DNA of 64,000 bases from a virus (lineage: Duplodnaviria > Caudoviricetes): IMG/VR virus record IMGVR_UViG_3300028887_000103, positions 16,373 through 80,372 of that record. One strand, 5' to 3'. The notes below the pieces were generated by a model. That model was not told where the DNA came from. It saw only the letters and a list, made by a program, of their open reading frames with translations, and ran no database searches. Position 1 is the first letter of the stretch; each line of letters begins with the position of its first letter. Positions 13,989 to 39,329 of this stretch are shown here, piece by piece. A program made the position numbers and the translations under genes.

Positions 13989-14166
13989 GATTTACTACAT
14001 AAATCCTGCTGGAATGACAGAAAGCGTCATCTGTCAAGGAGAAACGCAAGAGGAGTTGCAGAAAGACGCAGATTTGACAATTGATAGATTGGGGTGGAAT
14101 CGTGACTACTGTTGGTCGGAAGTAGTTAGAAATAATAAAGGAAAGGAGTCTTCAAGATGTATGTAG
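13969..14166 (+). CDS. Hypothetical protein
   Basis: Overlapping ORF in the operon. Confidence 0.55.
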   Translation: MSALLIKIYYINPAGMTESVICQGETQEELQKDADLTIDRLGWNRDYCWSEVVRNNKGKESSRCM

Positions 14167-14661: not shown

Positions 14662-14663
14662 TA

Positions 14664-14999: not shown

Positions 15000-15099
15000 A
15001 GTTCCACTGGTGTTTCTATGTAGGGCAAGCCGATTTTTGTTCTGCAACTTACTATGTGATACTTGTATTTTCTTGGTTTACGCATATTGTGTCCTTCTA

Positions 15100-16113
15100 T
15101 TATACCATATTACGAGGCTTTATTAACTGCCAGATTTGCTTATTGAGGGCTTCATCGCCTCTTTTTTTCAGCGTGAAAATTAACGACCTCATCTCTTTTG
15201 ATAAAGAATTATCTAGGGCTATGTCCTTGTCAGACAAGTGCTTTCTAGGCTCATACTCGTTCTTTACGGCAAGGAAAATCAGCGAGTGGTTATATTGTAG
15301 TTCGTCTTCCCACACTTCCATCTGACGCATAAATTCGTCTGGGATATCTAAATCTTGAATTCGTTGACCACTGGATAGGAGTTCCCACACCCTCTTTTTT
15401 GTGCAATCGGACAGTAGTCTGTGGTGGTTAATAAAGTATTGAGTCTTGATTTTAACTCGTTCAAAAGTCTTCAAGTCTTGTGCGACCACCCCTTCCACTT
15501 TTTGCTTTAAGTATTCTTTAGCCTCTGCCAATGATAATTCTTTAGCGATAGGAAATGGGCATTCTTCGTCTGGAATAATTTCGTTGAAGTTCTCATCTCT
15601 TATGGCCCAGCAAACTAACTTTGGCACTGGGTGTTTAGTTAGAATGATTGCTTCGTCACCTGGAAAGTTCTGCAAAAGTTCACAGAAATAAGTATAATTC
15701 GGGGTCATCTTTAGTAAGATTTCGTCTGTGAGGAACTTGTCCACAGCATCAATATACTGGTTTTTGAAACTCCCTCTAGAAGTGACAATCAGTCCCCAAT
15801 CAGAGTCTAGTTTGATTGAGATATAATAACCATCTAGTTTTTCGGAAATTCTAGCGTTCATCAAGTTGATTTCGGCGGCTAGAGGCTCTCCTTGGTTAAA
15901 AAACTTTTCAGGGCATCTAATGACAATCTTATAATTACTGTCTAATACTAAACCCCTTGTCTGTCTAGTAATCTTGTTCCAGTTGCCTTCGAACTGGGTT
16001 TTTTGGGAGTAGTTATAGATTGACAATGGTAATCTTGGGTGGTCAACCTTGCGAATATAGCCATCATCTACTAAAGAAATCAAATCGTCAATGTCTTGTT
16101 CACTTAAATTCAT
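15100..16113 (-). CDS. RNA ligase (T4 Rnl1-like nucleotidyltransferase)
   Basis: Motif I EKLDG, EGVV and RVKIK motifs; N-terminal 'YNYSQKTQFEGNW...RGLVLD' typical of Rnl1. Confidence 0.85.
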   Translation of the reverse strand: MNLSEQDIDDLISLVDDGYIRKVDHPRLPLSIYNYSQKTQFEGNWNKITRQTRGLVLDSNYKIVIRCPEKFFNQGEPLAAEINLMNARISEKLDGYYISIKLDSDWGLIVTSRGSFKNQYIDAVDKFLTDEILLKMTPNYTYFCELLQNFPGDEAIILTKHPVPKLVCWAIRDENFNEIIPDEECPFPIAKELSLAEAKEYLKQKVEGVVAQDLKTFERVKIKTQYFINHHRLLSDCTKKRVWELLSSGQRIQDLDIPDEFMRQMEVWEDELQYNHSLIFLAVKNEYEPRKHLSDKDIALDNSLSKEMRSLIFTLKKRGDEALNKQIWQLIKPRNMV

Positions 16114-16180
16114 AATGAAAATAGCCTCTGGGAGAAAGGGTAGATGAACTCCCAGAGACTTACCTCCTCCTAACTAAATA

Positions 16181-16954
16181 CTACCACGGAAGTTCTTTGC
16201 CGTCAAGAGAGATTTTGACAAAATTCTTGTCCTCAAGGGTAAGCAAAGAGTCGTCACCATACGGGGAATAATCAGAATAGGTAGAGAATGTGTCACAGAA
16301 ATAGATTTCTTCATCGTAGTTATTATAGAAGGTTACGGTCTGGTGTGGAGTATGTCCTACAATCTGAATTACTGGAAACCAATCTGCTATGAGTTCAACT
16401 GTGTCTGCCCAGAGTGGACTAGGGTCTTGGTGTCCTCCACGAGCATAACCTACATCGCCAAGTCCGAAGAAAGCGTCTTCACAATTTTCTTGTTTACGGT
16501 GATGAAAGGCATAGTTGGTTACTTTCATAATATCCCACGGGCTTTCAAAAGGTTTTTGAAAATACTTATTCAACCACGATTTAGTGAATCCTGCGTGAGA
16601 ACAGATAAAGGAACGGTCTTTGGGAACGAAAGCGATGTCAAAAAGTTCTTCGTATTTGGTAAAGAGTGGAGATATTAACTGTGAAGTCATAAAGTTATAA
16701 CCAGAACAAGCAAAAGGTTTGCCAAACCATTCAGATAAGTCGTGGTTACCTAGCAGAAGAATAACTTTGCCTGGGTTTGATAATTTGAAATCAATCAGAT
16801 TTTCTAATAACTGTTTAGAGTATTCTGGTGCTGACATCCAATCGTCAACATAATCGCCAAGGAAAATAACTTTGTCGTATCCTTCGGACAATTCTTTAAC
16901 CCGTTCTAGTATCCCGTTCTTGGTGTGTAAATCCCCTACGAATAAGTATTTCAT
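16181..16954 (-). CDS. Calcineurin-like metallophosphoesterase
   Basis: GDLH, GDYVD, GNHD, SHAG and GHT motifs. Confidence 0.9.
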   Translation of the reverse strand: MKYLFVGDLHTKNGILERVKELSEGYDKVIFLGDYVDDWMSAPEYSKQLLENLIDFKLSNPGKVILLLGNHDLSEWFGKPFACSGYNFMTSQLISPLFTKYEELFDIAFVPKDRSFICSHAGFTKSWLNKYFQKPFESPWDIMKVTNYAFHHRKQENCEDAFFGLGDVGYARGGHQDPSPLWADTVELIADWFPVIQIVGHTPHQTVTFYNNYDEEIYFCDTFSTYSDYSPYGDDSLLTLEDKNFVKISLDGKELPW

Positions 16955-27525: not shown

Positions 27526-28152
27526 ATGGTTACGATAATTACTTTAGTTAGCAATCGGAAAGGATTTGAAAATCTGAAGAGAAATCTAGTCAGTTTTGAA
27601 TCTGATTGGAAACTTGGGGTGGATATTCTTTGTATTGTTTCAGACTATGACTTATATCTAGAATGTCGGAATTTCTTGCACGAAAATGTAGATAGAGGGG
27701 AATGTCTAGTTGTCTTTGACCAAGATGCTACCTTAAAGTCTGGAAAAGAATATCTGGATACCAAGAATGAATATGTGTTCTTACTTGCCGAGAATGTCAG
27801 AGTTCCGAGTGGTGGTATCACTAAACTATACAAAAACTATCTTGAAAAACCACAGGCAGGGTTCATCACAGGGGAGTGGAACCAATTCCCGACTGTTCGC
27901 TGGGTCAAAGATATCTATGGTGCTCCGAAGTATATCTATTCAAATGAGCCGTCACCTTATGGGTTAAGAATGGATATAGATGTGGCAGAAGTCCACGGCA
28001 TAATGACAAAAACTAGTCTATACAAAGAATTGTTCTGTGCAGAGGATTTAGATGGTTACGGTAGTCATAGTTTCGGGATACGATTAAGAAGGCAAGGATA
28101 CAAAAATTATATTAACACAGGGGTAGAATACAAATATGGAGGTAACGAGTGA
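27526..28152 (+). CDS. Putative GT-A-fold glycosyltransferase-like protein
   Basis: N-terminal 'VTIITLV' strand, 'YVFLLAENV' at the DxD position, C-terminal 'FGIRLRRQGYKNYI' GT2-like segment; canonical DxD not seen. Confidence 0.4.
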   Translation: MVTIITLVSNRKGFENLKRNLVSFESDWKLGVDILCIVSDYDLYLECRNFLHENVDRGECLVVFDQDATLKSGKEYLDTKNEYVFLLAENVRVPSGGITKLYKNYLEKPQAGFITGEWNQFPTVRWVKDIYGAPKYIYSNEPSPYGLRMDIDVAEVHGIMTKTSLYKELFCAEDLDGYGSHSFGIRLRRQGYKNYINTGVEYKYGGNE

Positions 28153-29033
28153 AAATAATTATGTTGAAGGGGTTGCCTGCGAGTGGAAAATCTACTTGGG
28201 CTAGGGAGCGTCAAAAGGAAGGTGGCAATTATCTAGTCATAAGCAAAGATGAAATTCGTAAGATGTTCGGCGGGTATGCCCCCAAGCGAGAGAAAGATGT
28301 CTTAAGAGTAAGAAATGAACTGATAAAACTGGGCATTAAACTACGCAAGAATGTAATAGTGGATGATACCAACTTGAACATCAAGCACGAAAGATATATC
28401 AGACAATTGGCAAATGAACTAGGGGTGAAGTTTGAAATCAACGATGACTTTATGGAAGTTCCACCAGAAGAATGTATAAAACGAGATTTACACCGTGGAG
28501 AAAAGGCCGTCGGTGCTAGCGTGATTTGGGATATGTATTATAGATGGGTGGCACCAGACCCACAAGTCAATTTAGATGTAAACTTTGACAAACCGAGGTG
28601 TGTGATTTGTGATGTCGATGGCACATTGGCTCTGAATACAGAGGGCAGAAGTTTCTACGATTTGTCCAGAGTTAACGAGGATACGGCTGACCCGTTTGTC
28701 TCTTGCGTAGTAGATGCTCTGTATAACTATGGCACTGAAATCAATGGGGATAAATACCCTAGCATAATTATCTTGAGTGGAAGGGAAGAAATAAGTAGAG
28801 AAGCCACGGAGGGGTGGCTTAAACAATATGGTATTCCTTATGACCAAGTGATAATGCGAGAAACTGGGGATAAACGGAGTGATAGTATTGTGAAGCGAGA
28901 ACTCTATGAAAAATATGTAGAGCCAAACTACTGTGTCTTGGGAGTGATAGATGATAGACCTAGCGTCTGTGCTGTCTGGCGTAGTTTAGGCTTAAGAGTT
29001 GCTCAAGTTGGTAACCCATATATTGATTTCTGA
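28149..29033 (+). CDS. pseT: Polynucleotide 5'-kinase/3'-phosphatase (T4 PseT-like)
   Basis: GLPASGKST P-loop, VIVDDTN, then HAD domain DVDGTL, SGR, IDDR. Confidence 0.9.
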   Translation: MKIIMLKGLPASGKSTWARERQKEGGNYLVISKDEIRKMFGGYAPKREKDVLRVRNELIKLGIKLRKNVIVDDTNLNIKHERYIRQLANELGVKFEINDDFMEVPPEECIKRDLHRGEKAVGASVIWDMYYRWVAPDPQVNLDVNFDKPRCVICDVDGTLALNTEGRSFYDLSRVNEDTADPFVSCVVDALYNYGTEINGDKYPSIIILSGREEISREATEGWLKQYGIPYDQVIMRETGDKRSDSIVKRELYEKYVEPNYCVLGVIDDRPSVCAVWRSLGLRVAQVGNPYIDF

Positions 29034-29071
29034 ACTAGAAGTATGTTAAACTATAAAAAAGGAGACAATAG

Positions 29072-29284
29072 ATGAAAGAAAAAGCAACAAGTGGCGGAGT
29101 AGGTTTCTTAAGTTTACTATTCTTGCTATTTCTAGGTTTGAAACTTGGTAATGTGATTGACTGGTCGTGGTGGTGGGTGTTTGCACCACTTTGGGTTCCA
29201 GTGGCACTGTTCGTAGTCTTTATCGGGCTAGCGTTCTTGGGAGTGGTAATCTTTAACCCAAGATGGAAGAAGGGAAAGAAATGA
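29072..29284 (+). CDS. Small membrane protein
   Basis: Two hydrophobic segments with 'IDWSWWWVFAPLW'. Confidence 0.75.
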   Translation: MKEKATSGGVGFLSLLFLLFLGLKLGNVIDWSWWWVFAPLWVPVALFVVFIGLAFLGVVIFNPRWKKGKK

Positions 29285-29691
29285 TTACACCTTTTCGTCA
29301 GATTCGAAATGGATTTAGAAGAGTCAAGTGGTGGTTTATGCGAGCCAACGGGACACTTCCACCGTGCGACTGGTGGGATTATAAGTATAGTCTTGCCGAC
29401 TTTATCAAGCAGGGGCTTTCTGGGTTATTGCACGAAGGAGTGACTGACTGGGATAGCAAACATCATAAGAAGGAAAAGAAGGATTTGGAGTTTGTTCTAG
29501 ACTGGGCTATTGAGTTCCCTTATTATGAATCTGGAATAATTGCAAGCAATGAGGATGACTGCAAAAATCTAAAAAACCAGTTCGGTGATGAAGTTTTGGT
29601 AATGACAAAAGATGACTTTGAGGAGTTCCAGAAGAGGACAGAAAAAGCATTTAAACTGTTAGCGAAAAATATACATACTTTATGGGATTAA
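29263..29691 (+). CDS. Hypothetical protein
   Basis: Coupled ORF. Confidence 0.65.
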   Translation: MEEGKEMITPFRQIRNGFRRVKWWFMRANGTLPPCDWWDYKYSLADFIKQGLSGLLHEGVTDWDSKHHKKEKKDLEFVLDWAIEFPYYESGIIASNEDDCKNLKNQFGDEVLVMTKDDFEEFQKRTEKAFKLLAKNIHTLWD

Positions 29692-29692
29692 G

Positions 29693-30454
29693 ATGAAAAC
29701 AAAAGATTTAGATATAGTTTACTGTCTCAAAGAAAAAGTAACTCACGAGGAGTTCAGGTATTCTTTGAGGTCATTGAAAAACATAGAGCACAACCGAGTA
29801 TGGGTTTTTGGTGGCTGTCCAGATTGGCTTGATTTAGATAAGGTAGAATATGTCAAGACACTACAGAATAAGGGGAATAAATGGCTCAATGTGGCAAGTA
29901 TGCTTTTAGAGATTGCAGAGAATGACAATGTCACGGAAGATTTTATCTGGTTCAATGACGATTTCTTTGTGCTTCAAAAAACAGATGAGTTGAATTACTA
30001 CTATGATAGGACACTTTCAGCCAGAATATCTGATTTCTATAAACTTCATCTGTATCTGATGAATAACAACTACACTCGTAGGTTGGCGAATGCGAATAGA
30101 GCGTTGAAGTGGAAGAAACAAACCACACTAAACTATGAATTACATTTACCGATAATCTTTAACCGTAAGAAGTTGGCAGAAGTGATAAAGGCTTATCCAA
30201 ATGTCGGTGCCAAGAGAAGTCTCTACGGGAATAATTATGTAGAAGATGCCATCCAACGAAATGATGTTAAGATATATGACAATGAAAATACCCCCGACGA
30301 TACTTGGGATTTTGTATCCACTAGCGATAGTTCTTTTGTTGCAGGAAATGTTGGAAAATATATTCGTCAGAAGTTTAAGGCTAAAAGCAAATATGAAAAA
30401 GTTGACAAGAAAAAAAGCAAGCGCTATAATAAAACTGAAAAGGAGAACGAATGA
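29693..30454 (+). CDS. Stealth-like sugar-phosphotransferase/glycosyltransferase
   Basis: DIVY, EEFRYSLRSL, FIWFNDDFF and YELHLP motifs resemble Stealth conserved regions. Confidence 0.65.
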   Translation: MKTKDLDIVYCLKEKVTHEEFRYSLRSLKNIEHNRVWVFGGCPDWLDLDKVEYVKTLQNKGNKWLNVASMLLEIAENDNVTEDFIWFNDDFFVLQKTDELNYYYDRTLSARISDFYKLHLYLMNNNYTRRLANANRALKWKKQTTLNYELHLPIIFNRKKLAEVIKAYPNVGAKRSLYGNNYVEDAIQRNDVKIYDNENTPDDTWDFVSTSDSSFVAGNVGKYIRQKFKAKSKYEKVDKKKSKRYNKTEKENE

Positions 30455-32177: not shown

Positions 32178-32816
32178 GTGAAAAAAAATCTTAAAGATGT
32201 CAATATGGGCTGGGTTGCGACATCTGCTATAGTGGCTTATGCAATTATAGCGATTGCGACTGATATGTTCGCAAACAAAATGCTAAGCATCGGAAGTCTA
32301 ACGCTAGCAGGCGGTATTCTGATGATTCCGTTCAGTTTCACCATTCGTGACTTAATCCACAAATTGATTGGGTTTGACAATGTGAAGAAGGTGGTCTGGA
32401 CTACTGCAATTGTAAATCTAGTGGTAGCGATATTACTTATCGTTCTAGATGTTATTCCGTCGGCAGTTCCGGGCCAACAAGAGGCTTGGCACGCTTTGAT
32501 GGGTGCTAGTTGGCGAGTGATAATCGCTTCGTTCATAGCACAACTTGTGGCTGATTTAGGTAATACCTATGTCTACCAATGGGTGTGGAATAAACTTGGC
32601 GATAAACACGTTTGGTTGAGGACTATCATTTCAAACTTGCCAGCGTGTTTTCTAGATTCGGCGATATTCAGTTATATTGCGTTTCTAGGGGTGCTTGACC
32701 CAAACATTATCTGGGCGAGTGTTATAAGTTCATTCGCAGTAAAGTATGTCCTGTCGATTGTAGCGACACCACTTACTTACTTGAGTGAAACAAAGGAAAA
32801 AGAAAAGAAGAAATGA
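32178..32816 (+). CDS. yhhQ: YhhQ/VUT-family queuosine-precursor transporter
   Basis: Multi-TM protein with FTIRDLI, RVIIASFIA and RTIISN...DSAIFSYIAF motifs. Confidence 0.85.
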   Translation: MKKNLKDVNMGWVATSAIVAYAIIAIATDMFANKMLSIGSLTLAGGILMIPFSFTIRDLIHKLIGFDNVKKVVWTTAIVNLVVAILLIVLDVIPSAVPGQQEAWHALMGASWRVIIASFIAQLVADLGNTYVYQWVWNKLGDKHVWLRTIISNLPACFLDSAIFSYIAFLGVLDPNIIWASVISSFAVKYVLSIVATPLTYLSETKEKEKKK

Positions 32817-32858
32817 CAATATCCTGCTGGTCTGGGCTGGCAGGGGTAAAGGAATAGA

Positions 32859-33101
32859 ATGAGTCTAATTGAAGCAACAGGTCTAATAGCAACACTCCTA
32901 GTCTTTGTATCGTTCCTACCCAAGAATATCGTGTTTATCCGATGGGCTAACTTGATAGGAAGTATATTCTTCGTCATCTATGGCTTTGGGATAGGTGCGT
33001 TCTGGACGGGGTTTATGAATGCTTGTTTGATACTTGTTCAGGCTTATCACTTAACTAAAATCTATATGGAAAGGAAAAAGAATGGCAGGAAAGATAAATA
33101 G
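32859..33101 (+). CDS. Small multi-TM membrane protein (YgjV/PQ-loop-like)
   Basis: Three hydrophobic segments; 'IRWANLIGSIFFVIYG' pattern. Confidence 0.55.
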   Translation: MSLIEATGLIATLLVFVSFLPKNIVFIRWANLIGSIFFVIYGFGIGAFWTGFMNACLILVQAYHLTKIYMERKKNGRKDK

Positions 33102-33444
33102 TCTTACTGAAGAAGAGCAAGCAAAATGGCTTGACAATACTTATGGGATTGACGAGATTAAATTCGTCGAGGAAATACAGCATCATTGTCCACTAGGTGA
33201 GCAGGTCGGAGTGACAACTTATAATGTGGAAGTCGTGCCTGGAAAGCACTTGGCAGAGTTAATCCAACTGCACTGGGATATTCAGAAACTAATGGGACAA
33301 ACATTCACACTTGAAAGTGGTGCTGCTGAAGTTCTAGAGATAGTGAAAAAAGCGTATGTTGACCCTGAATATGTCTGTGTGAGAGCCAAGTGTCCACCCA
33401 ACCGACATATGAGCGTGGAAGTATCAGTGGAATACGAGGGTTAA
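33082..33444 (+). CDS. QueF-like T-fold protein
   Basis: HHCPLGEQ aligns by eye with QueF 'SLCPxTGQ'; 'ELIQL' and 'TFTLE' match later QueF elements; cluster context. Confidence 0.55.
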   Translation: MAGKINSLTEEEQAKWLDNTYGIDEIKFVEEIQHHCPLGEQVGVTTYNVEVVPGKHLAELIQLHWDIQKLMGQTFTLESGAAEVLEIVKKAYVDPEYVCVRAKCPPNRHMSVEVSVEYEG

Positions 33445-34266
33445 ATGTTACTGTTCTTCGCCGCTACAGAAGCAAGACAACACAGGGACGCTGCAATCGA
33501 GGGAGGTGTTAAAAACTCCCTCCAGTCTTTTTACACACTAGGTTGCGGTAAAGGAGTTCCAGATAACAAGAAGTTTGAGAATTATCTACTTGATTCGGGT
33601 GGGTATTCTGCTAGAAAGCACGGTATAGACATCAATGTCGAAGATTATGCTAGGTATCTCAATAACTACAAGATTAAAGTGGCGTTCAATCTAGACTTCA
33701 AGGACAATGACAAAAGTCTTCGGAATCAGAAATATCTTGAAACCCATACCGATACTTATGTGCTTCCTGTTTACCACGGGACAGAATGGATGAATCCGAA
33801 GTGGGATGGGTTGCTTGAATACTATATGGAACACTACCCATATATTGCTTTGGGTGGTATGGCAGGCAGGGAAAACTCGAAGGAAAATCTACCGAGATTT
33901 TTGAATTATGTATTCAGCAGAACTAAAAACAAAACCCAAGTTCACGGTCTAGGAATGACTAGTGAGCCACTGCTTAAGCAATATCCGTTCTATTCTGTCG
34001 ATTCCACGAGTTGGATGAGTCCAGCATTGTTCGCCAACAGCAGAATACACGGCGAGAAGTGGATGAAGGCTAACGCTAAAAGCAGACACTTCACCTATAA
34101 CATCATAGATGAGATGCCGTTCTGGTTTAAACTTGAAAAAGATGTTACGAAACTCTGGGAACAAAGAGGGGTGAGGTGGGGAAAGTTTGATTATGATATA
34201 TTCATATCAAAGAGGAAGAAAGAAATTCCTACTTTTGAAGAATGGAGAAATCATAATATAATATAA
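33445..34266 (+). CDS. DpdA/TGT-like guanine transglycosylase, paralog 1
   Basis: LLDSGGYS, FNLD, LPVYHG, IALGG, VHGLG and YPFYSVDSTSW motifs. Confidence 0.8.
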   Translation: MLLFFAATEARQHRDAAIEGGVKNSLQSFYTLGCGKGVPDNKKFENYLLDSGGYSARKHGIDINVEDYARYLNNYKIKVAFNLDFKDNDKSLRNQKYLETHTDTYVLPVYHGTEWMNPKWDGLLEYYMEHYPYIALGGMAGRENSKENLPRFLNYVFSRTKNKTQVHGLGMTSEPLLKQYPFYSVDSTSWMSPALFANSRIHGEKWMKANAKSRHFTYNIIDEMPFWFKLEKDVTKLWEQRGVRWGKFDYDIFISKRKKEIPTFEEWRNHNII

Positions 34267-34268
34267 CT

Positions 34269-34784
34269 ATGGCAAGTGGTGTTTATATTATAAAAGTAGG
34301 CAAAACTAAATATGTCGGAGCATCTGGCAATCTAAAGGTTAGAAAAGAAATACATTTTAATCAATTAAAAAGAGGAAAGCATTATAATCCATATTTACAA
34401 GAAGCCTACAACAAAAGTCAGGAATTTCGATTTGAAATAATAGAAGAGTGTGAAAATTCTTTTGAAAGGGAAAGGTGGTGGGTAGAGAGAATAGGAATAG
34501 AAAAATTAGCAAATGAAATTCTACCAGACGGGGTTAGTGGGATTCCAAGCGAGAGGATGAATAAGAAGCGTTCAGATTCTCTAAAAAAGTATTATGAAAC
34601 CCACGATGGTAATAAAACTTGGTTAGGGAAGACCAGGTCAGAAGAAACAAAACAAAAACTCCGAGAGCATCATAACCCTAAGAGCAATCCAAAAGGGTGT
34701 GTTCGGTCCGAGGAAACAAAGAGGAAAATCTCAGAATCAATTAAGAAGTGGCATCAGGAGAGGAAAAATGCAGGAAAAAGCTAA
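34269..34784 (+). CDS. GIY-YIG homing endonuclease with NUMOD3-like repeats
   Basis: GVYII...KYVGAS, HYNPYLQEAYNK; C-terminal SEETKQKLRE / SEETKRKISES. Confidence 0.85.
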   Translation: MASGVYIIKVGKTKYVGASGNLKVRKEIHFNQLKRGKHYNPYLQEAYNKSQEFRFEIIEECENSFERERWWVERIGIEKLANEILPDGVSGIPSERMNKKRSDSLKKYYETHDGNKTWLGKTRSEETKQKLREHHNPKSNPKGCVRSEETKRKISESIKKWHQERKNAGKS

Positions 34785-35424
34785 AGAAATATTTGAGTTT
34801 GACCCTAAAAAACTTTTGAAGGTTCCTATTTCGGAGGTTCGGGAAAATAATTGGAATCCAAAAGACCCAAATAGCCCAGAATATGAAAAAGTAAAAAGGT
34901 CTATCGAAATCAATGGTTTAACTCAACCAATTTTTGTTAGAGAGAATAGTGATGGGGATACAAAATATGAAGTCTTAGACGGAGCTCATAGATTTAGAAG
35001 TTGCAAAGAATTGGGGTTCAAGGAAATTTACATCTATAACGAAGGTGTTGTCCCAGACCCTTTGGCAAAAAGTTTCACTATCTATCATCAAATTCAGGTT
35101 CCGTTCGATGAAGCAGAATTGGCACCAATCGTGATGGAGTTAAACAACTTGCAGATGGAGTTACCTTACAACGAACTAGAGATAGATGGTTTTAGGAACT
35201 TGGCTAGTTTTGATTTTGATAAGGCTTACGAAAGTCAAACACCGTTGAAAGAAGACAATGACAAAGATGAGGAAATCTTAACTATAAAGATGACGGCAGA
35301 CCAGATAGAAAAGGTCAATAACGCTATCGAGGAAGTGAAGGCTTCTAAAAAAGTAAAAGAAGGGGAGGCATTGACAATGTTATGCGAAGGAGGGCTAGAT
35401 GTTATATTTTCTGACGAATCTTAA
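34768..35424 (+). CDS. ParB/Srx N-terminal domain protein 1 (start re-called)
   Basis: NNWNPK, SIEINGLTQPIFVRE, YEVLDGAHR. Confidence 0.85.
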   Translation: MQEKAKEIFEFDPKKLLKVPISEVRENNWNPKDPNSPEYEKVKRSIEINGLTQPIFVRENSDGDTKYEVLDGAHRFRSCKELGFKEIYIYNEGVVPDPLAKSFTIYHQIQVPFDEAELAPIVMELNNLQMELPYNELEIDGFRNLASFDFDKAYESQTPLKEDNDKDEEILTIKMTADQIEKVNNAIEEVKASKKVKEGEALTMLCEGGLDVIFSDES

Positions 35425-36304
35425 GAAACAGGCACCGTGGCAAATAGACTATGAAAATCTTTACCAGAAATACTTGACCGTGCCATATAAAGTTCTTACA
35501 GATAGAAGTCAATTGAGTGAGTTGACCGATAAAGATATTCTTTGGATACAACACTTTTTGGATATTGATACTCCAGAAACTAGGGCTTGCAAGGCTCGTA
35601 AGATGGCTCAGGTCAATGGAACAGCAGTCAACCCGTATATTGGTGCCGTGGATAAGAAACAGGAAGAAATTGAATACAACGAGATTTTAGACATTGCTTT
35701 GGTTTTTGATAGCGTAATCTCTTCCACAATGAAACACGCTTATCCGAAGGTAGATTTTTGGCGAGTAGGGTTCCCGATTCCAGAAATAAAACTTCCTCAA
35801 GTAGAAAAAAAGAAACAAATCTGCATTGCTGGAAGGCTGGATGCTTACAAGAATGTGAATATAAATATCTGGCTGACAGAGAATTTACGACGAGAAGGGT
35901 ATAAAGTAATCTTCTGTTACCCAGATAAAGATGTCCAAGCAGAAAGAGTCCAACTTTACAAACCAGAGAAGTTTGACAATCTTGAGTTCAGACGCTGTAA
36001 GAAGGAAGAATGGCTACAGATTGCCAACGAGAGTGAGTTCTATCTTTTGACAAGTTTCGATGATGTCTGTTCTGTGAGTATGTGGGAAGCCTACTATGCT
36101 GGGTGCTATTTACTTATTCCAGACATTCAAACCGGAATTATCAGGTATCCTGCGTATGTCAATCCACAGTTCCGTGCGTTTGACCGAGATTCTTTGGAAT
36201 GTTTAGTGGAAACAAAACCAAAACAAACCGTCAATACAATCAATATAATACCTCAAAAATGCGTAGAAAGGTTGGAGGAATACTTAAATGAAGAAAGTCT
36301 ATGA
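35399..36304 (+). CDS. GT-B-fold glycosyltransferase
   Basis: C-terminal 'ICIAGRLDAYKN' and 'LLTSFDDVCSVSMWEAYYAGC' match GT4-like nucleotide-sugar binding segments. Confidence 0.7.
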   Translation: MLYFLTNLKKQAPWQIDYENLYQKYLTVPYKVLTDRSQLSELTDKDILWIQHFLDIDTPETRACKARKMAQVNGTAVNPYIGAVDKKQEEIEYNEILDIALVFDSVISSTMKHAYPKVDFWRVGFPIPEIKLPQVEKKKQICIAGRLDAYKNVNINIWLTENLRREGYKVIFCYPDKDVQAERVQLYKPEKFDNLEFRRCKKEEWLQIANESEFYLLTSFDDVCSVSMWEAYYAGCYLLIPDIQTGIIRYPAYVNPQFRAFDRDSLECLVETKPKQTVNTINIIPQKCVERLEEYLNEESL

Positions 36305-37319
36305 TTTAGATGGGACTATCTGTGAAAATGGAAGTCCAGAAAACTTTGCAAATGCAATTGCTTTTAAGGAAGTGATTGCTGAAATAAACAATTCTTACGA
36401 TGCTGGCGATGAAATCGTGATTCACACTGCTAGGCTAGCAAAAGACCGAGAAGTGACAAAAGAATGGCTTAAAAAGAATGGAGTAAAGTATCACGAGTTG
36501 CTAATGGGCAAACCAACGGCTGACCTCTATATTGATGATAAAGCCCTTCCTTACATTCCAGCAAGAGGGCCACAACTCAATAGGAAGAAGTTGGCTGTCT
36601 GTATCTCTGGAGGGATGGATTCTTACATCGCTTACTGGTATGCCATCTATGAAAAAGGATATGACCCTGAAGATATTATCTGTCTAAACTTTGATATCGG
36701 GCATCCTTACAGAAAGAAAGAACAGGAATGTTTGAAAAAGTTAGAAATTCCTTATGAAACTATCACGGTGGATATTTTGCGACCAGAGTTTGGCAATATG
36801 CCAGACGAGGAAAATTATATTATCCCGGCAAGGAATATGATTTTTGCGTCTATAGCATCTGGATTTGCTGAACGGGTGTGGATAATGGGAATGAAATACG
36901 AAGACCATTACTTTATGCTAGACAAGAATACAAACTTCTTTAAGGGTGCGTCTTTCATTTTAAGTCAAGCAACAGGAAACCCTACAGTAGTGGAAACCCC
37001 GTTCAAGAACTTGACAAAAACTGACATCATTAACTGGGCAAAGAACTTCAAACTTCCTCACCTGCACGATACGACTTCTTGCTATAACCCAGACCATCAA
37101 AGATGTGGTAAATGTTCGCTATGCTTTAAGAGATATATCGCTATGAAGGCTTGTGGTCTAGACGAAGAGTTTGCTACTGACCCTACCCAATCAGAAGAGG
37201 CAAAGCGTCTAGTGGAGGCTTACAGAGAAGCAGTGAAAAATAATGATTACACCCACTACCAGAAGGATAGAATTGAAGAAACCTTCCGAGTGCTGGGTTT
37301 GGATGAAAAAGGATACTAG
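36288..37319 (+). CDS. HAD-phosphatase-like domain fused to QueC-like PP-loop ATPase
   Basis: N-terminal YDLDGT, HTAR, MGKP...YIDDKA; C-terminal SGGMDS, IPARNMIF and CYN...CGKCSLC zinc site. Confidence 0.8.
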   Translation: MKKVYDLDGTICENGSPENFANAIAFKEVIAEINNSYDAGDEIVIHTARLAKDREVTKEWLKKNGVKYHELLMGKPTADLYIDDKALPYIPARGPQLNRKKLAVCISGGMDSYIAYWYAIYEKGYDPEDIICLNFDIGHPYRKKEQECLKKLEIPYETITVDILRPEFGNMPDEENYIIPARNMIFASIASGFAERVWIMGMKYEDHYFMLDKNTNFFKGASFILSQATGNPTVVETPFKNLTKTDIINWAKNFKLPHLHDTTSCYNPDHQRCGKCSLCFKRYIAMKACGLDEEFATDPTQSEEAKRLVEAYREAVKNNDYTHYQKDRIEETFRVLGLDEKGY

Positions 37320-38126
37320 ATGCTAATTTTCTTTGCAGGAGCAGAAGGAGAAGACTTTAGAATAATTCTAAAGCAGGCAGGAGCCAAGAATGTGCTTCAA
37401 TCGTTTTGGGCTTTAAGACCAGACAAACCACCGAAGACAGAGGCGTTTGACAATTATTTACTAGATTCAGGTGGGTTTTCGGCAAGGCAACACGGAGTTG
37501 AAATAAGTGTCCAAGAGTATGCTAACTACTTGAATATGTATAAAATCAAGTATGCTTTCAACTTGGATGTTCTAGACTTAAAGACGAGTTTGAAAAACCA
37601 AGACTACCTAGTCAGAAATACCAACACTTACATTATGCCAGTCTATCACGGCAATGAATGGATTGACCCTAAAACCAGAGATTTGCTTGATTATTATATC
37701 GAGTGCTTCCCATACATAGCCCTAGGAGGTATGGCAGGCAGAGAAAATAGCAAAGCCAACCTTCCGAAGTTTCTAAATTATGTATTCAAGAGAACTAGAG
37801 ATAAGACAAAAGTCCACGGGCTAGGGATGACGGGGGTGACCTTCCTTCGCAAATACCCGTTCTTCTCGGTAGATTCAACGAGTTGGATTTGCATAAACCG
37901 ATATGCCCAGAGTAAAGTCTATTCCCACGAGATGACCAGAGTTCGGCTTAACAACAGGTCGTGGAGGGAAAATCTTGTTCCAGAAGCAAAACATTGGATT
38001 GGAGTGCAAAATGAAATGACAAGGCTATGGGATAGACGGGGTATCGTCTGGGGAAACCTCGACTATGATAAACTGATGGCAGAAAGAAAGGTTATGACCT
38101 ATGAAGAATGGAAGGAAAAGAAATGA
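37320..38126 (+). CDS. DpdA/TGT-like guanine transglycosylase, paralog 2
   Basis: LLDSGGFS, FNLD, MPVYHG, IALGGMAGRENSK, YPFFSVDSTSW; clear paralog of 33445..34266. Confidence 0.8.
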   Translation: MLIFFAGAEGEDFRIILKQAGAKNVLQSFWALRPDKPPKTEAFDNYLLDSGGFSARQHGVEISVQEYANYLNMYKIKYAFNLDVLDLKTSLKNQDYLVRNTNTYIMPVYHGNEWIDPKTRDLLDYYIECFPYIALGGMAGRENSKANLPKFLNYVFKRTRDKTKVHGLGMTGVTFLRKYPFFSVDSTSWICINRYAQSKVYSHEMTRVRLNNRSWRENLVPEAKHWIGVQNEMTRLWDRRGIVWGNLDYDKLMAERKVMTYEEWKEKK

Positions 38127-38704
38127 GAGATTTTAACCCAGATAACATACAGATTGTGGGTATAGATGAGGTTCGGCCTAACGGCTGGAACCCTAAACTT
38201 GAAAATACACCAGAATATCAAAAGATTGTAGAAAGTATCCAAGTCAATGGCTTCAAGTCCCCTATTATCGTGCGAGAAGTAGAAGGAGAAGACGGCTATG
38301 AAATCTGTGACGGTTGTCAGAGATGGAATGCCGCTAAACAACTAGGCTTTGACAAAATCTACATTTACAACTTGGGTAAGATTTCAGAAAGTGAAGCGAA
38401 GTCTATCACTATCTGGATGGAAACTCAAGTCAAGTTTGATGAGTTGCAACTTGCACCACTTGTGGCAGAATTAAACGATTTGCAAATGACAATGCCATAC
38501 ACGGAAGATGAAGTTCAAGATTACATAAATATGCTTCACTTCGATTTTGAGGGTGATGGCAAAATCAGTTTGAGTGTTAAATGCACTCCAGAACAGTTCG
38601 ATAAGATTAAAGAATGTCTGAATGTCTATACTTACAACAATGAAGTGGAGGAAGACAAGGCTTTGGTGGAAATGGTAAAACTAGGAGTGAAGAGGTATGA
38701 GTAG
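38123..38704 (+). CDS. ParB/Srx N-terminal domain protein 2
   Basis: NGWNPK, SIQVNGFKSPIIVRE, YEICDGCQRW. Confidence 0.85.
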   Translation: MRDFNPDNIQIVGIDEVRPNGWNPKLENTPEYQKIVESIQVNGFKSPIIVREVEGEDGYEICDGCQRWNAAKQLGFDKIYIYNLGKISESEAKSITIWMETQVKFDELQLAPLVAELNDLQMTMPYTEDEVQDYINMLHFDFEGDGKISLSVKCTPEQFDKIKECLNVYTYNNEVEEDKALVEMVKLGVKRYE

Positions 38705-39329
38705 TGATTTTGACCCAAAAAATCTGAAGAAGATTAAAATATCTGAAATGCTGTTTAACGACTGGAATCCGAAGGAGAATGAAAAAGACTATGAGAAGGT
38801 CAAGAAGTCGATAGTCGTCAATGGATTGGTCACTCCAATTTTTGTGCGTAAAACAGATGAGGGCTATGAGGTTGTCGATGGTAATCAGAGGGCAAGGGCT
38901 TGCAGAGAGTTAGGTTACACAGAAATCTATGTCTATGATTTAGGTGAAATCAGTGAGGCAGAGGCAAAACAACTAGTTCTTTATCTTCAGATTCAAGTTC
39001 CGTTCGTAACTGATATGCTAGCACCAATCGCTGTGGAATTGGAAAGTCTAGGTATGGAGTTGCCCTACAATGAAAAAGAGATGCAGAAGTTTCGTGATTT
39101 AGAAGCGTTTGATATGGACACGGCTTATGAAGACGAAGAACCAGTGCCAGAGCCAGAAAAACCAGAAGACGAGATAAAAGAAAAACTTAAAACCTACAAG
39201 ATTAAACTCCAACCAGAAGATTTCGATATAGTGCGAGATGCTATTGATAAAGTCATAATGTCCGAGAATGTGAATGAAGGCAGGGCTTTGGAGTTGCTTT
39301 TGCTTGTGGCGATGGAATGGGAAAGTTAG
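38697..39329 (+). CDS. ParB/Srx N-terminal domain protein 3
   Basis: NDWNPK, SIVVNGLVTPIFVR, YEVVDGNQR. Confidence 0.85.
   Translation: MSSDFDPKNLKKIKISEMLFNDWNPKENEKDYEKVKKSIVVNGLVTPIFVRKTDEGYEVVDGNQRARACRELGYTEIYVYDLGEISEAEAKQLVLYLQIQVPFVTDMLAPIAVELESLGMELPYNEKEMQKFRDLEAFDMDTAYEDEEPVPEPEKPEDEIKEKLKTYKIKLQPEDFDIVRDAIDKVIMSENVNEGRALELLLLVAMEWES

What the first reader, a model, noticed from the sequence alone, without database searches (positions are those of the whole stretch)
32178..39329. Expanded 7-deazaguanine-type modification cluster with a glycosyltransferase
Seen: yhhQ, small membrane protein, QueF-like, DpdA-like 1, (GIY-YIG), ParB-N 1, GT-B, HAD-QueC, DpdA-like 2, ParB-N 2, ParB-N 3, translationally coupled. 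Known: phage DpdA inserts preQ0, preQ1, G+ or ADG-type bases into DNA to block restriction, and QueF-like enzymes convert preQ0. Inference: salvage of a precursor, insertion, then sugar hypermodification, possibly giving an undescribed base.
Basis: partly seen in the sequence, partly recalled or inferred. Interest (0 to 1): 0.8.

Follow-up and report, generated by a model that had tools for sequence, protein, structure and literature searches.

The report
Phage deazaguanine DNA operon with sugar transferase
An uncultured 80-kb phage carries a tightly packed 11-gene operon that almost certainly swaps guanine in its DNA for an imported 7-deazaguanine. The operon also holds a real sugar-transferring enzyme locked to an unusual QueC-phosphatase fusion, which predicts but does not prove a sugar-bearing purine that I found in no paper.

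Summary
The two calls that no Pfam model supports held up on structure.

- **The 120-aa protein** models as a T-fold closest to archaeal archaeosine synthase QueF-L. It keeps the catalytic Cys but lacks the NADPH motif of QueF.
- **The 301-aa protein** is a GT4-like GT-B glycosyltransferase with intact donor-binding motifs.

The 80-kb genome has no FolE, QueD or QueE, so the base or its precursor must be imported (YhhQ) or taken from the host.

Comparison with about 30 related metagenomic loci adds four points:
- YhhQ, the 80-aa membrane protein and QueF-L-like form an invariant trio.
- Each DpdA travels with ParB-N (DpdB-like) partners. The window combines two such cassettes from separate lineages, one split by a homing endonuclease.
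- QueC here belongs to a phage-only subtype with altered substrate motifs that always comes with a small HAD phosphatase.
- The GT accompanies every member (10 of 10) of the closest QueC subgroup.

The likeliest product is a glycosylated 7-deazaguanine in DNA. The acceptor atom and the role of the HAD are unresolved. This scan has noted sugar transferases inside phage deazaguanine clusters before, on other DNA, but not this GT and HAD-QueC family.

The parts
32178..32816 (+). YhhQ/Vut_1 7-deazaguanine precursor transporter (212 aa)
   Evidence: PF02592 1.2e-34 and TIGR00697 91 bits, above its cut-off. Always followed by TM80 and QueF-L-like in the 13 related loci found through QueF-L-like.
32859..33101 (+). 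80-aa predicted three-helix membrane protein (TM80). Possibly a transporter subunit; function unknown.
   Evidence: Hydrophobic sequence. Weak Imp-YgjV match, E 0.024. 57-94% conserved beside YhhQ in relatives; beside the GT in L024/L031, where YhhQ is absent.
33082..33444 (+). QueF-L-like T-fold protein (120 aa). Predicted to act on the nitrile of preQ0 through a Cys thioimide; not an NADPH reductase.
   Evidence: Model pLDDT 94.6. Best match is archaeosine synthase QueF-L 5jyx (TM 0.77/0.88, rmsd 1.7 A, 24% id, Z 14.4), against Z 11.6 for B. subtilis QueF. C36 is invariant in 39 homologues. The QueF motif reads ELIQLHWD against ELKSLKYY in the validated phiSM QueF.
33445..34266 (+). DpdA-a, DNA guanine transglycosylase (273 aa)
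   Evidence: phrog_887 7e-37. About 30% identical to phiSM and 9g-like DpdA. Keeps the invariant DSGG, NLD, PVYH, HGLG and SVDS columns shared with phiSM DpdA. Forms a clade with L003a and L008.
34269..34784 (+). Free-standing GIY-YIG/NUMOD3 homing endonuclease inserted between DpdA-a and ParB1
   Evidence: NUMOD3 3.6e-7, GIY-YIG 3.9e-4, TIGR01453 2.9e-13, phrog_314. It appears as a clean gap of about 510 nt against relative L003, with lower identity just downstream.
34768..35424 (+). ParB-N 1, predicted DpdB-like NTPase partner of DpdA-a
   Evidence: ParB_N 1.3e-10. DGAHR at the GxxRxxA/DGQQR position (motif from PMC10164549). Adjacent to a DpdA in most related loci that hold one.
35399..36304 (+). 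GT4-like GT-B glycosyltransferase (301 aa)
   Evidence: No Pfam hit. Model pLDDT 70. Foldseek TarM/SenB/GtfA 4e-7; VIA Z 18.6-16 to GT4 enzymes over about 280 residues. The profile reaches PF00534/PF13439 proteins. G145-R146...K151 and D222-x7-E230 are invariant. Always next to HAD-QueC of the same subtype.
36288..37319 (+). HAD phosphatase (residues 1-90) fused to a DKN-type QueC-like PP-loop ATPase (residues 100-343)
   Evidence: QueC 2.9e-24. HAD motifs DLDGT, HTAR, GKP and IDDK. The HAD domain hits PDB 1xpj 9e-9 and 9iqw 1.2e-7. SGGMDS, IPARN, TK and the four Zn cysteines are kept; YPDC becomes LDKN and YxQxHxxE becomes FDIGHPY..KE.
37320..38126 (+). DpdA-b, second DNA guanine transglycosylase (268 aa)
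   Evidence: phrog_887 1.2e-38. 52% identical to DpdA-a. Forms a clade with L003b and L005, separate from DpdA-a. All invariant columns are kept.
38108..38704 (+). ParB-N 2, predicted DpdB-like partner of DpdA-b
   Evidence: ParB_N 7.8e-11. DGCQRWNA fits GxxRxxA. A two-ParB arrangement follows the b-type DpdA in L005, L013 and L020.
38697..39329 (+). ParB-N 3, second ParB-like protein of the b cassette
   Evidence: ParB_N 9.6e-10. DGNQRARA fits GxxRxxA. A separate lineage in the ParB tree.

Best explanation
This is a phage operon for post-replicative replacement of guanine in its own DNA by a 7-deazaguanine. It is built from four modules.

1. **Salvage (inferred).** YhhQ, with the 80-aa membrane protein, imports preQ0 or a close precursor. 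The phage has no FolE, QueD or QueE.
2. **Nitrile conversion (inferred).** The QueF-L-like T-fold enzyme attacks the nitrile with its invariant Cys and turns it into something other than the amine. The formamidine of archaeosine (G+), made with free ammonium, is the most likely product. This could happen on the free base or on preQ0 already in DNA.
3. **Insertion (homology shown, activity inferred).** Two DpdA transglycosylases from separate lineages exchange G for the base. Each has ParB-N partners that play the role of the bacterial ATPase DpdB. The two cassettes probably act at two different sets of sites, raising the density of modification.
4. **Decoration (inferred).** The GT4-like enzyme, together with the DKN-type QueC-like ATPase and its fused HAD phosphatase, builds a sugar-bearing side chain on the deazaguanine. 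My preferred chemistry is that the QueC-like domain activates the 7-carboxylate of CDG (7-carboxy-7-deazaguanine) supplied by the host. The phosphatase removes a phosphate from an intermediate or from the sugar precursor. The GT then adds a sugar from a host nucleotide sugar.

The result would be DNA carrying a bulky, glycosylated purine that blocks restriction enzymes and possibly other nucleases. Which atom carries the sugar, and whether the sugar is added before or after insertion, is not settled.
For: **Gene identities.**

**No de novo pathway.** The whole 80-kb genome (CheckV 100%) gives no match for FolE, QueD or radical SAM.

**QueF-L-like.** Cys36 is invariant. Both lysines of the NADPH motif are missing, unlike the validated phiSM QueF (PMC10516641).

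**DpdA with ParB-N.**
- Most DpdA genes in the related loci sit next to a ParB-N gene.
- The same holds in Cellulophaga phiSM.
- Bacterial DpdA needs the ParB-like ATPase DpdB, with its DGQQR motif (PMC10164549). The window proteins carry DGAHR, DGCQR and DGNQR.
- The two DpdAs belong to clades that each occur alone in related phages.

**GT.**
- The fold is shown by VIA Z 18.6.
- G145-R146...K151 and D222-x7-E230 are invariant.
- A GT gene lies directly against the HAD-QueC gene in the window, L003, L005, L008, L012, L024/L031, L025/L032, L026, L028 and L033. In L010 it lies about 2 kb upstream.
- It is present in 10 of 10 loci of the close QueC subgroup and in 1 of 10 other DKN-type loci (Fisher p 1e-4, not corrected for relatedness).

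**Sugar context in relatives.** A UDP-Glc/GDP-Man dehydrogenase lies in L025, and a PF03567 carbohydrate-type sulfotransferase lies directly upstream of the GT in L026.

**HAD and QueC coupling.** The two are fused in both orders (HAD-QueC here, QueC-HAD in L028 and L042). In many other loci they are separate adjacent ORFs.

**HAD subfamily.** It is the subfamily of AfhF, the sugar-bisphosphate phosphatase of a phage DNA glycosylation pathway.

**No pyrimidine acceptor route.** The genome has no ThyA-like pyrimidine hydroxylase or hydroxymethylase that could give another DNA acceptor.

**Precedents.**
- GT4-type HuiG glycosylates a preQ0-derived base.
- QueC homologues act as amide ligases (bioRxiv 10.64898/2026.04.15.718813; PMC13329287).
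Against: - No product can be seen with these tools. None of the eight known DNA deazaguanines has a hydroxyl for an ordinary O-glycosylation.
- The GT model has only moderate confidence (pLDDT 70), and the protein passes no Pfam threshold.
- Four GT-bearing loci (L024, L025, L026, L033) show no QueF-L-like within 8-9 kb, so the sugar step and the QueF-L-like step are not obligatorily linked.
- The HAD goes with DKN-type QueC in about ten loci that have no detectable GT. It may therefore serve QueC chemistry (for example pyrophosphate removal or an unknown phosphorylated substrate) and not the sugar.
- The phage has no recognisable sugar nucleotidyltransferase or sugar isomerase, so an AfhE/AfhF-like donor pathway is not present.
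- The Asp general acid/base of QueF and QueF-L (Cys+7) is Gly here, so the chemistry of QueF-L-like may differ from both.
- Phage proteins once called QueF-L by HHpred turned out to give dPreQ1 (PMC6884629).
- No DpdA was found within 8 kb of the GT/HAD-QueC pair in L025 and L026.
Confidence: 0.5

Rival explanations
1. An ordinary known modification with no sugar on DNA. The operon gives dG+ (or dPreQ0, dADG or dPreQ1) in phage DNA. The GT serves something else, such as glycosylating a protein or a host surface molecule, or it is only a structural partner of the QueC-like enzyme. The HAD simply pulls the QueC reaction forward, for example by hydrolysing pyrophosphate.
For: - Every known phage deazaguanine system ends in one of eight unglycosylated bases (PMC10516641).
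- HAD plus DKN-type QueC occurs without a GT in about ten loci.
- All the fusion partners of this HAD family release pyrophosphate: QueC and the cytidylyltransferases PF01467 and PF02348.
- No sugar-activation genes are present in the genome.
Against: - The GT lies directly against HAD-QueC, usually overlapping it, in phages whose QueC is 46-95% identical, and it is present in 10 of 10 loci of that subgroup.
- A GT acting on an unrelated target would not keep this position.
- Its donor-binding motifs are invariant.
- A sugar dehydrogenase and a sulfotransferase join the pair in relatives.
Confidence: 0.27
2. The sugar is put on the free base, or a small glycosylated deazapurine is made. The GT and HAD-QueC act on the free 7-deazaguanine, as HuiG does in huimycin synthesis. 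The product is either inserted afterwards by a DpdA that tolerates a large 7-substituent, or it is a small molecule that is never put into DNA.
For: - GT4-type HuiG glycosylates a preQ0-derived free base, and roseomycin-type QueC homologues are amide ligases on free CDG.
- L025 and L026 show the GT/HAD-QueC pair without a detectable DpdA nearby.
- From my own knowledge, TGT-type enzymes tolerate bulky groups on the 7-aminomethyl of preQ1.
Against: - In 9 of 11 GT-bearing loci a DpdA, and in most of these a ParB-N too, lies in the same gene row.
- A phage has no obvious use for a free nucleoside antibiotic.
- The family is absent from 185,579 bacterial and archaeal species genomes, unlike secondary-metabolite clusters.
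Confidence: 0.15
3. The target is not DNA. The TGT-like and QueC-like proteins modify tRNA, or they conjugate a deazaguanine to a protein as Cap9/Cap10 and QatC do. This could, for example, interfere with host CBASS or Qat defence.
For: QueC-family and TGT-family proteins do carry out protein deazaguanylation in defence systems (PMC13329287). The QueC-like domain here departs from the canonical preQ0-synthase signature.
Against: - The DpdA-like proteins match the phage DpdA family (phrog_887) and keep the columns shared with phiSM DpdA.
- They are about 270 aa with no extra RNA-binding domain, and they are paired with ParB-N DNA-type NTPases.
- QatC scores only 9e-5, far below its cut-off, and PADLOC gives plain QueC.
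Confidence: 0.05

Closest known systems
Cellulophaga phage phiSM dPreQ1/mdPreQ1 cluster (FolE, QueF, DpdM, DpdA1, ParB-like, QueC, QueD, QueE; Cui, Hutinet et al. 2023, PMC10516641)
   Same: It has a DpdA1-type transglycosylase, the best phage match at about 30% identity, directly followed by a ParB-like gene. It also has a T-fold enzyme acting on preQ0 and a QueC in one gene row. Its purpose is protection of phage DNA from restriction.
   Different: - phiSM makes the base de novo. It has a canonical YPDC QueC and a true NADPH QueF (ELKSLKYY).
- It has no YhhQ, no HAD and no GT.
- The window has no FolE, QueD or QueE. It has a QueF-L-like protein without the NADPH motif, a DKN-type QueC fused to a HAD, a GT, and two DpdA/ParB cassettes.
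Enterobacteria phage 9g dG+ system (DpdA plus Gat-QueC; Hutinet et al. 2019, PMC6884629)
   Same: It is a phage that puts archaeosine into DNA through a DpdA1-type enzyme. The window's DpdAs hit the same PHROG and are about 30-34% identical to 9g-like (Nonagvirus) DpdA.
   Different: In 9g the amidine is attributed to a glutamine amidotransferase-QueC fusion. Here the candidate is a QueF-L-like T-fold protein, a route not documented in a phage: Cui 2023 found that no phage QueF aligned with QueF-L.
Archaeal archaeosine synthase QueF-L (Pyrobaculum calidifontis; PDB 5jyx, 5k0p; PMC5485725)
   Same: It has the same T-fold, is of similar size (about 105 aa against 120 here), and has the catalytic Cys. 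It lacks the NADPH motif. It is the best structural match (Z 14.4, rmsd 1.7 A, 24% identity).
   Different: - Neither PDB sequence searches nor Pfam detect any similarity.
- The Asp at Cys+7 is Gly here, with an invariant Glu at Cys+4.
- The archaeal enzyme acts on preQ0 in tRNA. The phage protein is genetically tied to a transporter, and its substrate is unknown.
Bacterial Dpd modification module DpdA/DpdB/DpdC (Salmonella Montevideo; PMC10164549)
   Same: A TGT-like DNA transglycosylase works with a ParB-fold NTPase that carries a DGxxR motif.
   Different: - The phage ParB-N proteins are about 200 aa and fall below the cut-offs of the named NCBIfam ParB-family models they match. No DpdB model matched them in PADLOC or NCBIfam.
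- There is no DpdC and there are no restriction genes.
- There are three ParB-N genes for two DpdAs.
Arabinosyl-5-hydroxycytosine DNA pathway of phages RB69, DLP3 and HY126 (PMC13326640)
   Same: It is a phage DNA hypermodification that combines GT4-like GT-B transferases with a small HAD phosphatase of the 1xpj/9iqw subfamily (AfhF). The window's HAD hits 9iqw at 1.2e-7, and its GT model aligns to the HY126 GT at Z 13.7.
   Different: That pathway modifies cytosine. It needs a ThyA-like hydroxylase, a sugar isomerase and a kinase/uridylyltransferase, and none of these is in this genome. Here the HAD is fused to QueC.
Glycosyltransferases known to act on 7-deazaguanines: HuiG of huimycin synthesis (free base), and QTMAN/GTDC1 on queuosine in tRNA (the latter from my own knowledge and scan note e1-4377401)
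   Same: These are GT4-type GT-B enzymes that put a sugar on a 7-deazaguanine derivative.
   Different: Neither acts on DNA. The window GT shows no sequence similarity to any named GT family at Pfam thresholds. The acceptors there (N2 of an O6-methyl base; the cyclopentenediol of Q) are not expected here.

Membership tests
Phage DpdA-type 7-deazaguanine DNA modification system | A DpdA (TGT-like) transglycosylase of the phage type | tested here: met
   phrog_887 7e-37 and 1.2e-38. 29-34% identity to phiSM and Nonagvirus DpdA. The DSGG, HGLG and SVDS columns are invariant with phiSM DpdA.
Phage DpdA-type 7-deazaguanine DNA modification system | A source of the 7-deazaguanine base (de novo genes or a transporter) | tested here: met
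   YhhQ scores above the NCBIfam cut-off, and a QueC-like gene is present. FolE, QueD and QueE are absent from the whole genome, so the supply is by salvage or from the host.
Phage DpdA-type 7-deazaguanine DNA modification system | A 7-deazaguanine nucleoside in virion DNA | not testable with these tools
   This needs LC-MS/MS of DNA, and the phage is uncultured.
QueF nitrile reductase (preQ0 to preQ1) | NADPH-binding QueF motif E(S/L)K(S/A)hK(L/Y)(Y/F/W) | tested here: not met
   The aligned stretch reads E59-L-I-Q-L-H-W-D in the window and is similar in 39 homologues. The validated phiSM QueF reads ELKSLKYY (motif from PMC10516641).
Archaeal QueF-L amidinotransferase | T-fold of QueF-L type with the thioimide-forming Cys | tested here: met
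   5jyx is the top match (TM 0.77/0.88, Z 14.4, 102 residues, rmsd 1.7 A). C36 is invariant and aligns with the CP-motif Cys of phiSM QueF.
Archaeal QueF-L amidinotransferase | Conserved Asp general acid/base (Cys+7 in QueF and QueF-L) | tested here: not met
   Cys+7 is the invariant G43. E40 and Q41 are invariant instead. The Asp is described as conserved in PMC5485725. I therefore call the protein QueF-L-like, not a member.
Archaeal QueF-L amidinotransferase | Acts on preQ0 embedded in nucleic acid, using free ammonium | not testable with these tools
   This needs an enzyme assay.
Canonical QueC (preQ0 synthase; signature of Libby et al. 2026, PMC13329287) | SGGxDS loop, VPxRN, conserved Lys and the Zn cysteine cluster | tested here: met
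   SGGMDS, IPARN, TK244TD, and C265/C273/C276/C279 with Y266.
Canonical QueC (preQ0 synthase; signature of Libby et al. 2026, PMC13329287) | Substrate motifs YxQxHxxE and YPDC | tested here: not met
   The window has FDIGHPYRKKE (the His position is Tyr) and MLDKN (Cys replaced by Lys, Tyr by Leu). The same change is seen in all HAD-associated QueCs. Canonical phage QueCs in L011, L019, L088 and phiSM keep Y(A/P)DC and GQxH/GSxH; the GQ pair holds in L011, L019 and phiSM, and L011 lacks the His.
GT4-type GT-B glycosyltransferase | Two-Rossmann GT-B fold | tested here: met
   VIA Z 18.6-16 over 270-290 residues to GT4 enzymes (6eji, BshA, sucrose-phosphate synthase, TarM). Foldseek PDB 4e-7 and BFVD 3e-8. 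The model is only pLDDT 70.
GT4-type GT-B glycosyltransferase | Sequence membership (Pfam Glycos_transf_1) and the EX7E donor-site motif | tested here: inconclusive
   No Pfam hit even at E 1. The family profile does reach true PF00534/PF13692 proteins at about 1e-10 to 1e-4. G145-R146...K151 and D222-x7-E230 are invariant; the first Glu of the motif is Asp here.
DpdB (ParB-like ATPase partner of bacterial DpdA) | ParB N-terminal NTPase domain with a DGQQR/GxxRxxA motif, encoded next to dpdA | tested here: met
   ParB_N 1e-10, 8e-11 and 1e-9. The motifs are DGAHR, DGCQRWNA and DGNQRARA. A ParB-N gene lies adjacent to DpdA in most related loci that hold both.
DpdB (ParB-like ATPase partner of bacterial DpdA) | Match to a curated DpdB model, or a SspE-like C-terminal domain | tested here: inconclusive
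   PADLOC and NCBIfam gave no DpdB match, only generic ParB and a methyltransferase-linked ParB. The C-terminal halves were not modelled. I treat these proteins as functional analogues, not members.
AfhF/1xpj-type small HAD phosphatase | The four HAD motifs and sequence similarity to the subfamily | tested here: met
   DLDGT, HTAR, GKP and IDDK. 1xpj 9e-9 and 9iqw 1.2e-7. TIGR01689 1.8e-6, below its cut-off.
AfhF/1xpj-type small HAD phosphatase | A sugar bisphosphate as substrate | not testable with these tools
   No kinase, nucleotidyltransferase or isomerase partner is present in the genome, so the substrate may differ.

The most novel reading that the evidence does not exclude
The virion DNA of this phage group carries a sugar-bearing 7-deazaguanine, which would be the first glycosylated purine reported in any DNA. 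Its side chain would be assembled by a dedicated three-part unit. A QueC-derived ATP-dependent enzyme with a remodelled, Lys/Arg-containing substrate pocket acts first. A fused HAD phosphatase then uncovers a hydroxyl or prepares the sugar. A GT4-like transferase adds the sugar. In this phage the product would be combined with a QueF-L-type archaeosine branch and written at two site sets by two DpdA/ParB cassettes.
Probability: 0.4. Interest if true: 0.9.

Novelty: new variant of a known kind. Interest (0 to 1): 0.72.

Why it matters
Deazaguanine replacement is one of the main ways in which phages hide purines from restriction enzymes and Cas nucleases. All eight known DNA forms are small.

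- **A sugar on such a base** would extend glycosylation of phage DNA, so far known only for pyrimidines, to purines. It would define new targets and blind spots for type IV restriction, DNA glycosylase defences and sequencing chemistry.
- **Three parts apart from the sugar question** are absent from every paper I could search. They are a phage QueF-L-like family lacking the NADPH motif and tied to a transporter, the constant DpdA/ParB-N pairing in phages, and a phage-only DKN-type QueC that always brings a HAD phosphatase. Each can be tested with standard enzyme assays.
- **A route to the bench exists.** Cultured Stenotrophomonas phages (Menderavirus) carry the DKN-type QueC plus HAD-like pair.

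Tried and rejected
- **Close relatives.** Megablast of the 7-kb cluster against 50,697 phage records gave no match. tblastn of the GT against phages gave no match. A pattern scan of IMG/VR with the GT alignment found no relative.
- **PDB sequence searches.** The QueF-L-like profile gave only repeated weak hits to polyubiquitin (short GKTxTLE stretches, each domain E above 100). The GT profile gave thermosome at E 0.01. I reject both as chance.
- **DpdA near the GT pair in L025 and L026.** Neither blastp nor hhalign against a DpdA alignment found one within 8 kb. The full records could not be searched.
- **Host genomes.** The HAD-QueC family gave no relative in 185,579 bacterial and archaeal species genomes.
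- **A phage-encoded sugar-activation route like AfhE/AfhF.** The genome has no NTP_transferase, NTP_transf_3 or SIS domain.
- **A hydroxylated pyrimidine as the GT's acceptor.** The genome has no ThyA-like gene.
- **Operon signals.** The promoter and terminator scan found counts no higher than in shuffled sequence, so it gives no information on operon boundaries.
- **QueF-L-like as a nitrilase regenerating CDG.** I rejected this as the main reading. In L011 and L019 it sits with a canonical QueC, which would make a futile cycle.
- **The HAD as a pure companion of the GT.** I rejected this after finding about ten HAD plus QueC loci without a GT.
- **Literature.** Searches for glycosylated deazaguanine in DNA, HAD-QueC fusions or phage QueF-L found nothing relevant. 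The library is incomplete, so this is not proof of absence.

Full report
**What is there**

The window is bases 16373-80372 of an 80,372-bp IMG/VR virus record that CheckV rates complete. Between 32178 and 39329 eleven ORFs lie head to tail on the + strand. Ten overlap or abut. The exception is a 42-nt gap after the first gene.

- YhhQ: PF02592 1.2e-34; TIGR00697 above its cut-off.
- A GIY-YIG/NUMOD3 homing endonuclease.
- Three ParB_N proteins.
- A QueC domain preceded by a HAD domain.
- Two proteins of the phage DpdA family: phrog_887 7e-37 and 1.2e-38.

The two DpdA-like proteins are 52% identical to each other. They are about 30% identical to DpdA of Cellulophaga phage phiSM and of 9g-like coliphages, whose DNA is known to carry deazaguanines (PMC6884629; PMC10516641).

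**The two unsupported labels**

The 120-aa 'QueF-like' and the 301-aa 'GT-B' proteins hit nothing in Pfam, PHROGs, NCBIfam or PADLOC.

*The 120-aa protein.*
- It has 81 homologues at 55-93% identity, none with a function assigned.
- Its model is confident (pLDDT 94.6).
- The best structural match is archaeal archaeosine synthase QueF-L: 5jyx, TM 0.77/0.88, rmsd 1.7 A, 24% identity, Z 14.4. B. subtilis QueF gives Z 11.6 and GTP cyclohydrolase I about 12.
- Cys36 is invariant and aligns with the CP-motif Cys of the experimentally validated phiSM QueF.
- phiSM QueF has the NADPH motif ELKSLKYY and an Asp seven residues after the Cys. The window family reads ELIQLHWD and has Gly at that position, with invariant Glu40 and Gln41 instead.

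It is therefore not a QueF reductase. It is QueF-L-like, but not a clean member of QueF-L.

One caution applies. Phage proteins once assigned to QueF-L by HHpred gave dPreQ1 in DNA (PMC6884629). Those proteins, however, carry the NADPH motif (PMC10516641).

*The 301-aa protein.*
- It has only 13 close homologues.
- Its model is moderate (pLDDT 70).
- The model aligns over 270-290 residues with GT4 enzymes at Z 16-18.6. It also aligns with T4 alpha-glucosyltransferase (Z 15.2), the phage HY126 DNA glycosyltransferase (Z 13.7) and a pterin glucosyltransferase (Z 15.9).
- A profile that includes two 36-37% relatives found 38 clusters at E below 1e-10 among 1.84 billion representatives. Its weaker hits, about 1e-10 and weaker, include true PF00534/PF13439 glycosyltransferases.
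- G145-R146...K151 and D222-x7-E230 are invariant. These lie where GT4 enzymes bind the nucleotide sugar.
- The protein-language-model search agrees for both proteins.

**What the genome lacks**

Six-frame profile searches of all 80 kb find none of the following:
- FolE, QueD or a radical SAM enzyme.
- A sugar nucleotidyltransferase or a SIS isomerase.
- A ThyA-like enzyme.
- A Pfam-recognisable GT.

So the base cannot be made de novo, and no hydroxylated pyrimidine acceptor can be made. If the GT uses a nucleotide sugar, the host supplies it.

**Comparative anatomy**

I collected about 30 distinct related loci through the GT, QueF-L-like and HAD-QueC families. I annotated them with one HMM panel. 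Five patterns emerge.

1. **An invariant trio.** YhhQ, the 80-aa membrane protein and QueF-L-like are adjacent in all 13 distinct loci found through QueF-L-like, whatever else varies. The smallest versions are DpdA-YhhQ-TM80-QueF-L-like, preceded by a ParB-N gene in L015 and a weak ParB-N match in L021. L011 and L019 add a canonical QueC.
2. **DpdA with ParB-N.** Most DpdA genes in these loci, and the one in phiSM, have a ParB-N gene beside them. The bacterial DpdA needs the ParB-fold ATPase DpdB, whose DGQQR motif is essential (PMC10164549). The window proteins carry DGAHR, DGCQR and DGNQR at that place. The phage papers I read do not mention ParB.
3. **Two cassettes, not a recent duplication.** In a DpdA tree the a copy groups with the sole DpdA of L008. 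The b copy groups with the sole DpdA of L005. Related phage L003 has the same double arrangement without the homing endonuclease. Against L003 the endonuclease is a clean insertion of about 510 nt, with reduced identity in the 5' part of ParB1.
4. **A distinct QueC subtype.**
   - The window's QueC keeps SGGxDS, (V/I)PxRN, the Lys and the zinc cysteines.
   - The substrate motifs that Libby et al. 2026 show to be essential are changed. YPDC reads (L/Y/F)DKN, and the His of YxQxHxxE is Tyr.
   - Every QueC of this kind that I found has a small HAD phosphatase fused in front, fused behind (L028, L042), or encoded as the neighbouring ORF. Canonical phage QueCs have none adjacent.
   - The family is absent from 185,579 bacterial and archaeal species genomes.
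   - The nearest cultured-phage proteins are only 26-28% identical.
   - Among cultured phages, Stenotrophomonas Menderavirus phages have FolE, inositol-3-phosphate synthase, a HAD-like gene, a DKN-type QueC and a QueE-like gene in a row.
5. **The GT follows the closest QueC subgroup.** This subgroup has a conserved C-terminal extension of about 45 residues.
   - All ten distinct loci of the subgroup have the GT: nine directly against the QueC gene, and one (L010) with it about 2 kb upstream.
   - Only one of ten other DKN-type loci has a GT (L028) (Fisher p 1e-4, descriptive only, since the loci are related).
   - In L025 a UDP-Glc/GDP-Man dehydrogenase lies in the same row.
   - In L026 a PF03567 sulfotransferase lies directly upstream of the GT.
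   - L024, L025, L026 and L033 have the GT pair but no QueF-L-like within reach. L012, L024 and L028 have FolE, QueD and QueE with the DKN-type QueC as the only QueC.

**The HAD domain**

All four HAD motifs are intact. Its closest solved relatives are 1xpj and 9iqw. DLP3 gp81, the homologue of AfhF, has 1xpj as its best structural match, so this appears to be the subfamily of AfhF. AfhF is the Mg-dependent phosphatase that turns arabinose-1,5-bisphosphate into arabinose-1-phosphate in the arabinosyl-5-hydroxycytosine DNA pathway of phages HY126, RB69 and DLP3 (PMC13326640).

Other homologues of the domain are fused to cytidylyltransferases of sugar-activation pathways. This points to sugar-phosphate chemistry. 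Two facts pull the other way:
- The phage lacks the rest of such a pathway.
- The HAD follows QueC even where no GT is present.

I leave its substrate open. Candidates are a phosphorylated intermediate of the QueC-like reaction, a sugar phosphate, or pyrophosphate.

**How it most likely works**

*Shown.* Shown here means gene identities, motif states, gene order and co-occurrence.

*Inferred from established knowledge.*
- YhhQ imports preQ0 or preQ1.
- DpdA exchanges G in duplex DNA.
- ParB-N supplies the NTPase function that DpdB supplies in bacteria.
- The Cys of QueF-L-like forms a thioimide with a nitrile.

*Inferred with less support.*
- QueF-L-like gives the amidine G+. I put this at about 50%, against a reductase using another reductant, a hydratase giving the amide, or something else.
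- The two cassettes write at different sites.
- The GT with the DKN-type QueC and HAD builds a sugar-bearing side chain.

Because the GT tracks the QueC subgroup and not QueF-L-like, the sugar is more likely attached to what the QueC-like enzyme makes than to G+. A coherent scheme has the QueC-like enzyme acting as a ligase on the 7-carboxylate, dephosphorylation exposing a hydroxyl, and then glycosylation. QueC homologues that act as amide ligases and GT4-type HuiG acting on a preQ0-derived base are precedents. The scheme itself is untested.

**Comparison with the known, and novelty**

The core (DpdA plus a deazaguanine supply) is a known kind of system. The following appear in no paper I could search:
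- The GT locked to a QueC subtype.
- The DKN-type QueC and HAD unit.
- A QueF-L-like family without the NADPH motif, tied to a transporter.
- The general DpdA/ParB-N pairing in phages.
- Two cassettes in one operon.

Notes from this scan report sugar transferases inside other phage deazaguanine clusters, mostly DpdL/DpdA3 or Gat-QueC types on other DNA. The theme is therefore recurrent in the scan. Sequence look-ups found this GT and this HAD-QueC in no other scanned genome. I rate the finding a new variant of a known kind, with interest 0.72.

Noticed in passing
window 27526-30454: Upstream of the cluster lie a 208-aa protein with no family hit, a full PNKP (kinase plus HAD_PNKP, 2.9e-39), a 142-aa protein, and a Stealth_CR2-like protein (4e-7, below its cut-off). 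PNKP and the Stealth-like gene recur at the same place in L003, L005, L013 and L020, with or without the GT. They look lineage-linked and not tied to the sugar step.
   Followed up: partly
window 34269-34784 and 34780-35100: The GIY-YIG endonuclease is a clean insertion of about 510 nt relative to phage L003. DNA identity to L003 drops from 79-87% upstream to 57-69% in the first 300 nt of ParB1, as expected for co-conversion around a homing site. A promoter-like site (10 of 12) lies at 34235-34262, but such sites are no more frequent than chance.
   Followed up: partly
L024:2777-6610 and L026:11332-13347: In relatives the deazaguanine synthesis genes themselves carry mobile elements. A QueE-like gene carries a LAGLIDADG domain and a FolE carries an intein (L024). 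L026 has a further intein/LAGLIDADG ORF.
   Followed up: no
L111 (Stenotrophomonas phage vB_SmaM_Bhz51, OR797040.1 27973-33502): Cultured Menderavirus phages have FolE, an inositol-3-phosphate synthase, a small HAD-like 'polynucleotide kinase', a DKN-type QueC-like gene, a 403-aa unknown and a QueE-like gene in a row. My HMM found no DpdA within 7 kb. They are a candidate for an undescribed modification that can be tested at the bench.
   Followed up: partly
L010:10438-11790; L025:5118-6413 and 11742-16597; L026:6195-7085: Relatives add different accessory enzymes to the same core. L010 has a full-length SHMT-family enzyme. L025 has a UDP-Glc/GDP-Man dehydrogenase, a lysine-aminomutase-like radical SAM enzyme and an acetyltransferase. 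L026 has a carbohydrate-type sulfotransferase. This suggests a family of differently decorated bases.
   Followed up: no
L028:5923-6984 and L042:1414-2403: The HAD domain is fused to the C-terminus of QueC here, the reverse of the window's order. L024, L031, L033-L037 and L040 have it as a separate neighbouring ORF. The fusions appear to have arisen independently.
   Followed up: yes
L027:14338-14939: A distant GT relative (E 1e-29) lies in a phage whose DNA polymerase A is fused to a uracil-DNA glycosylase. A recent paper links that architecture to T-modified genomes. This phage also has FolE and a distant DpdA-like gene.
   Followed up: no
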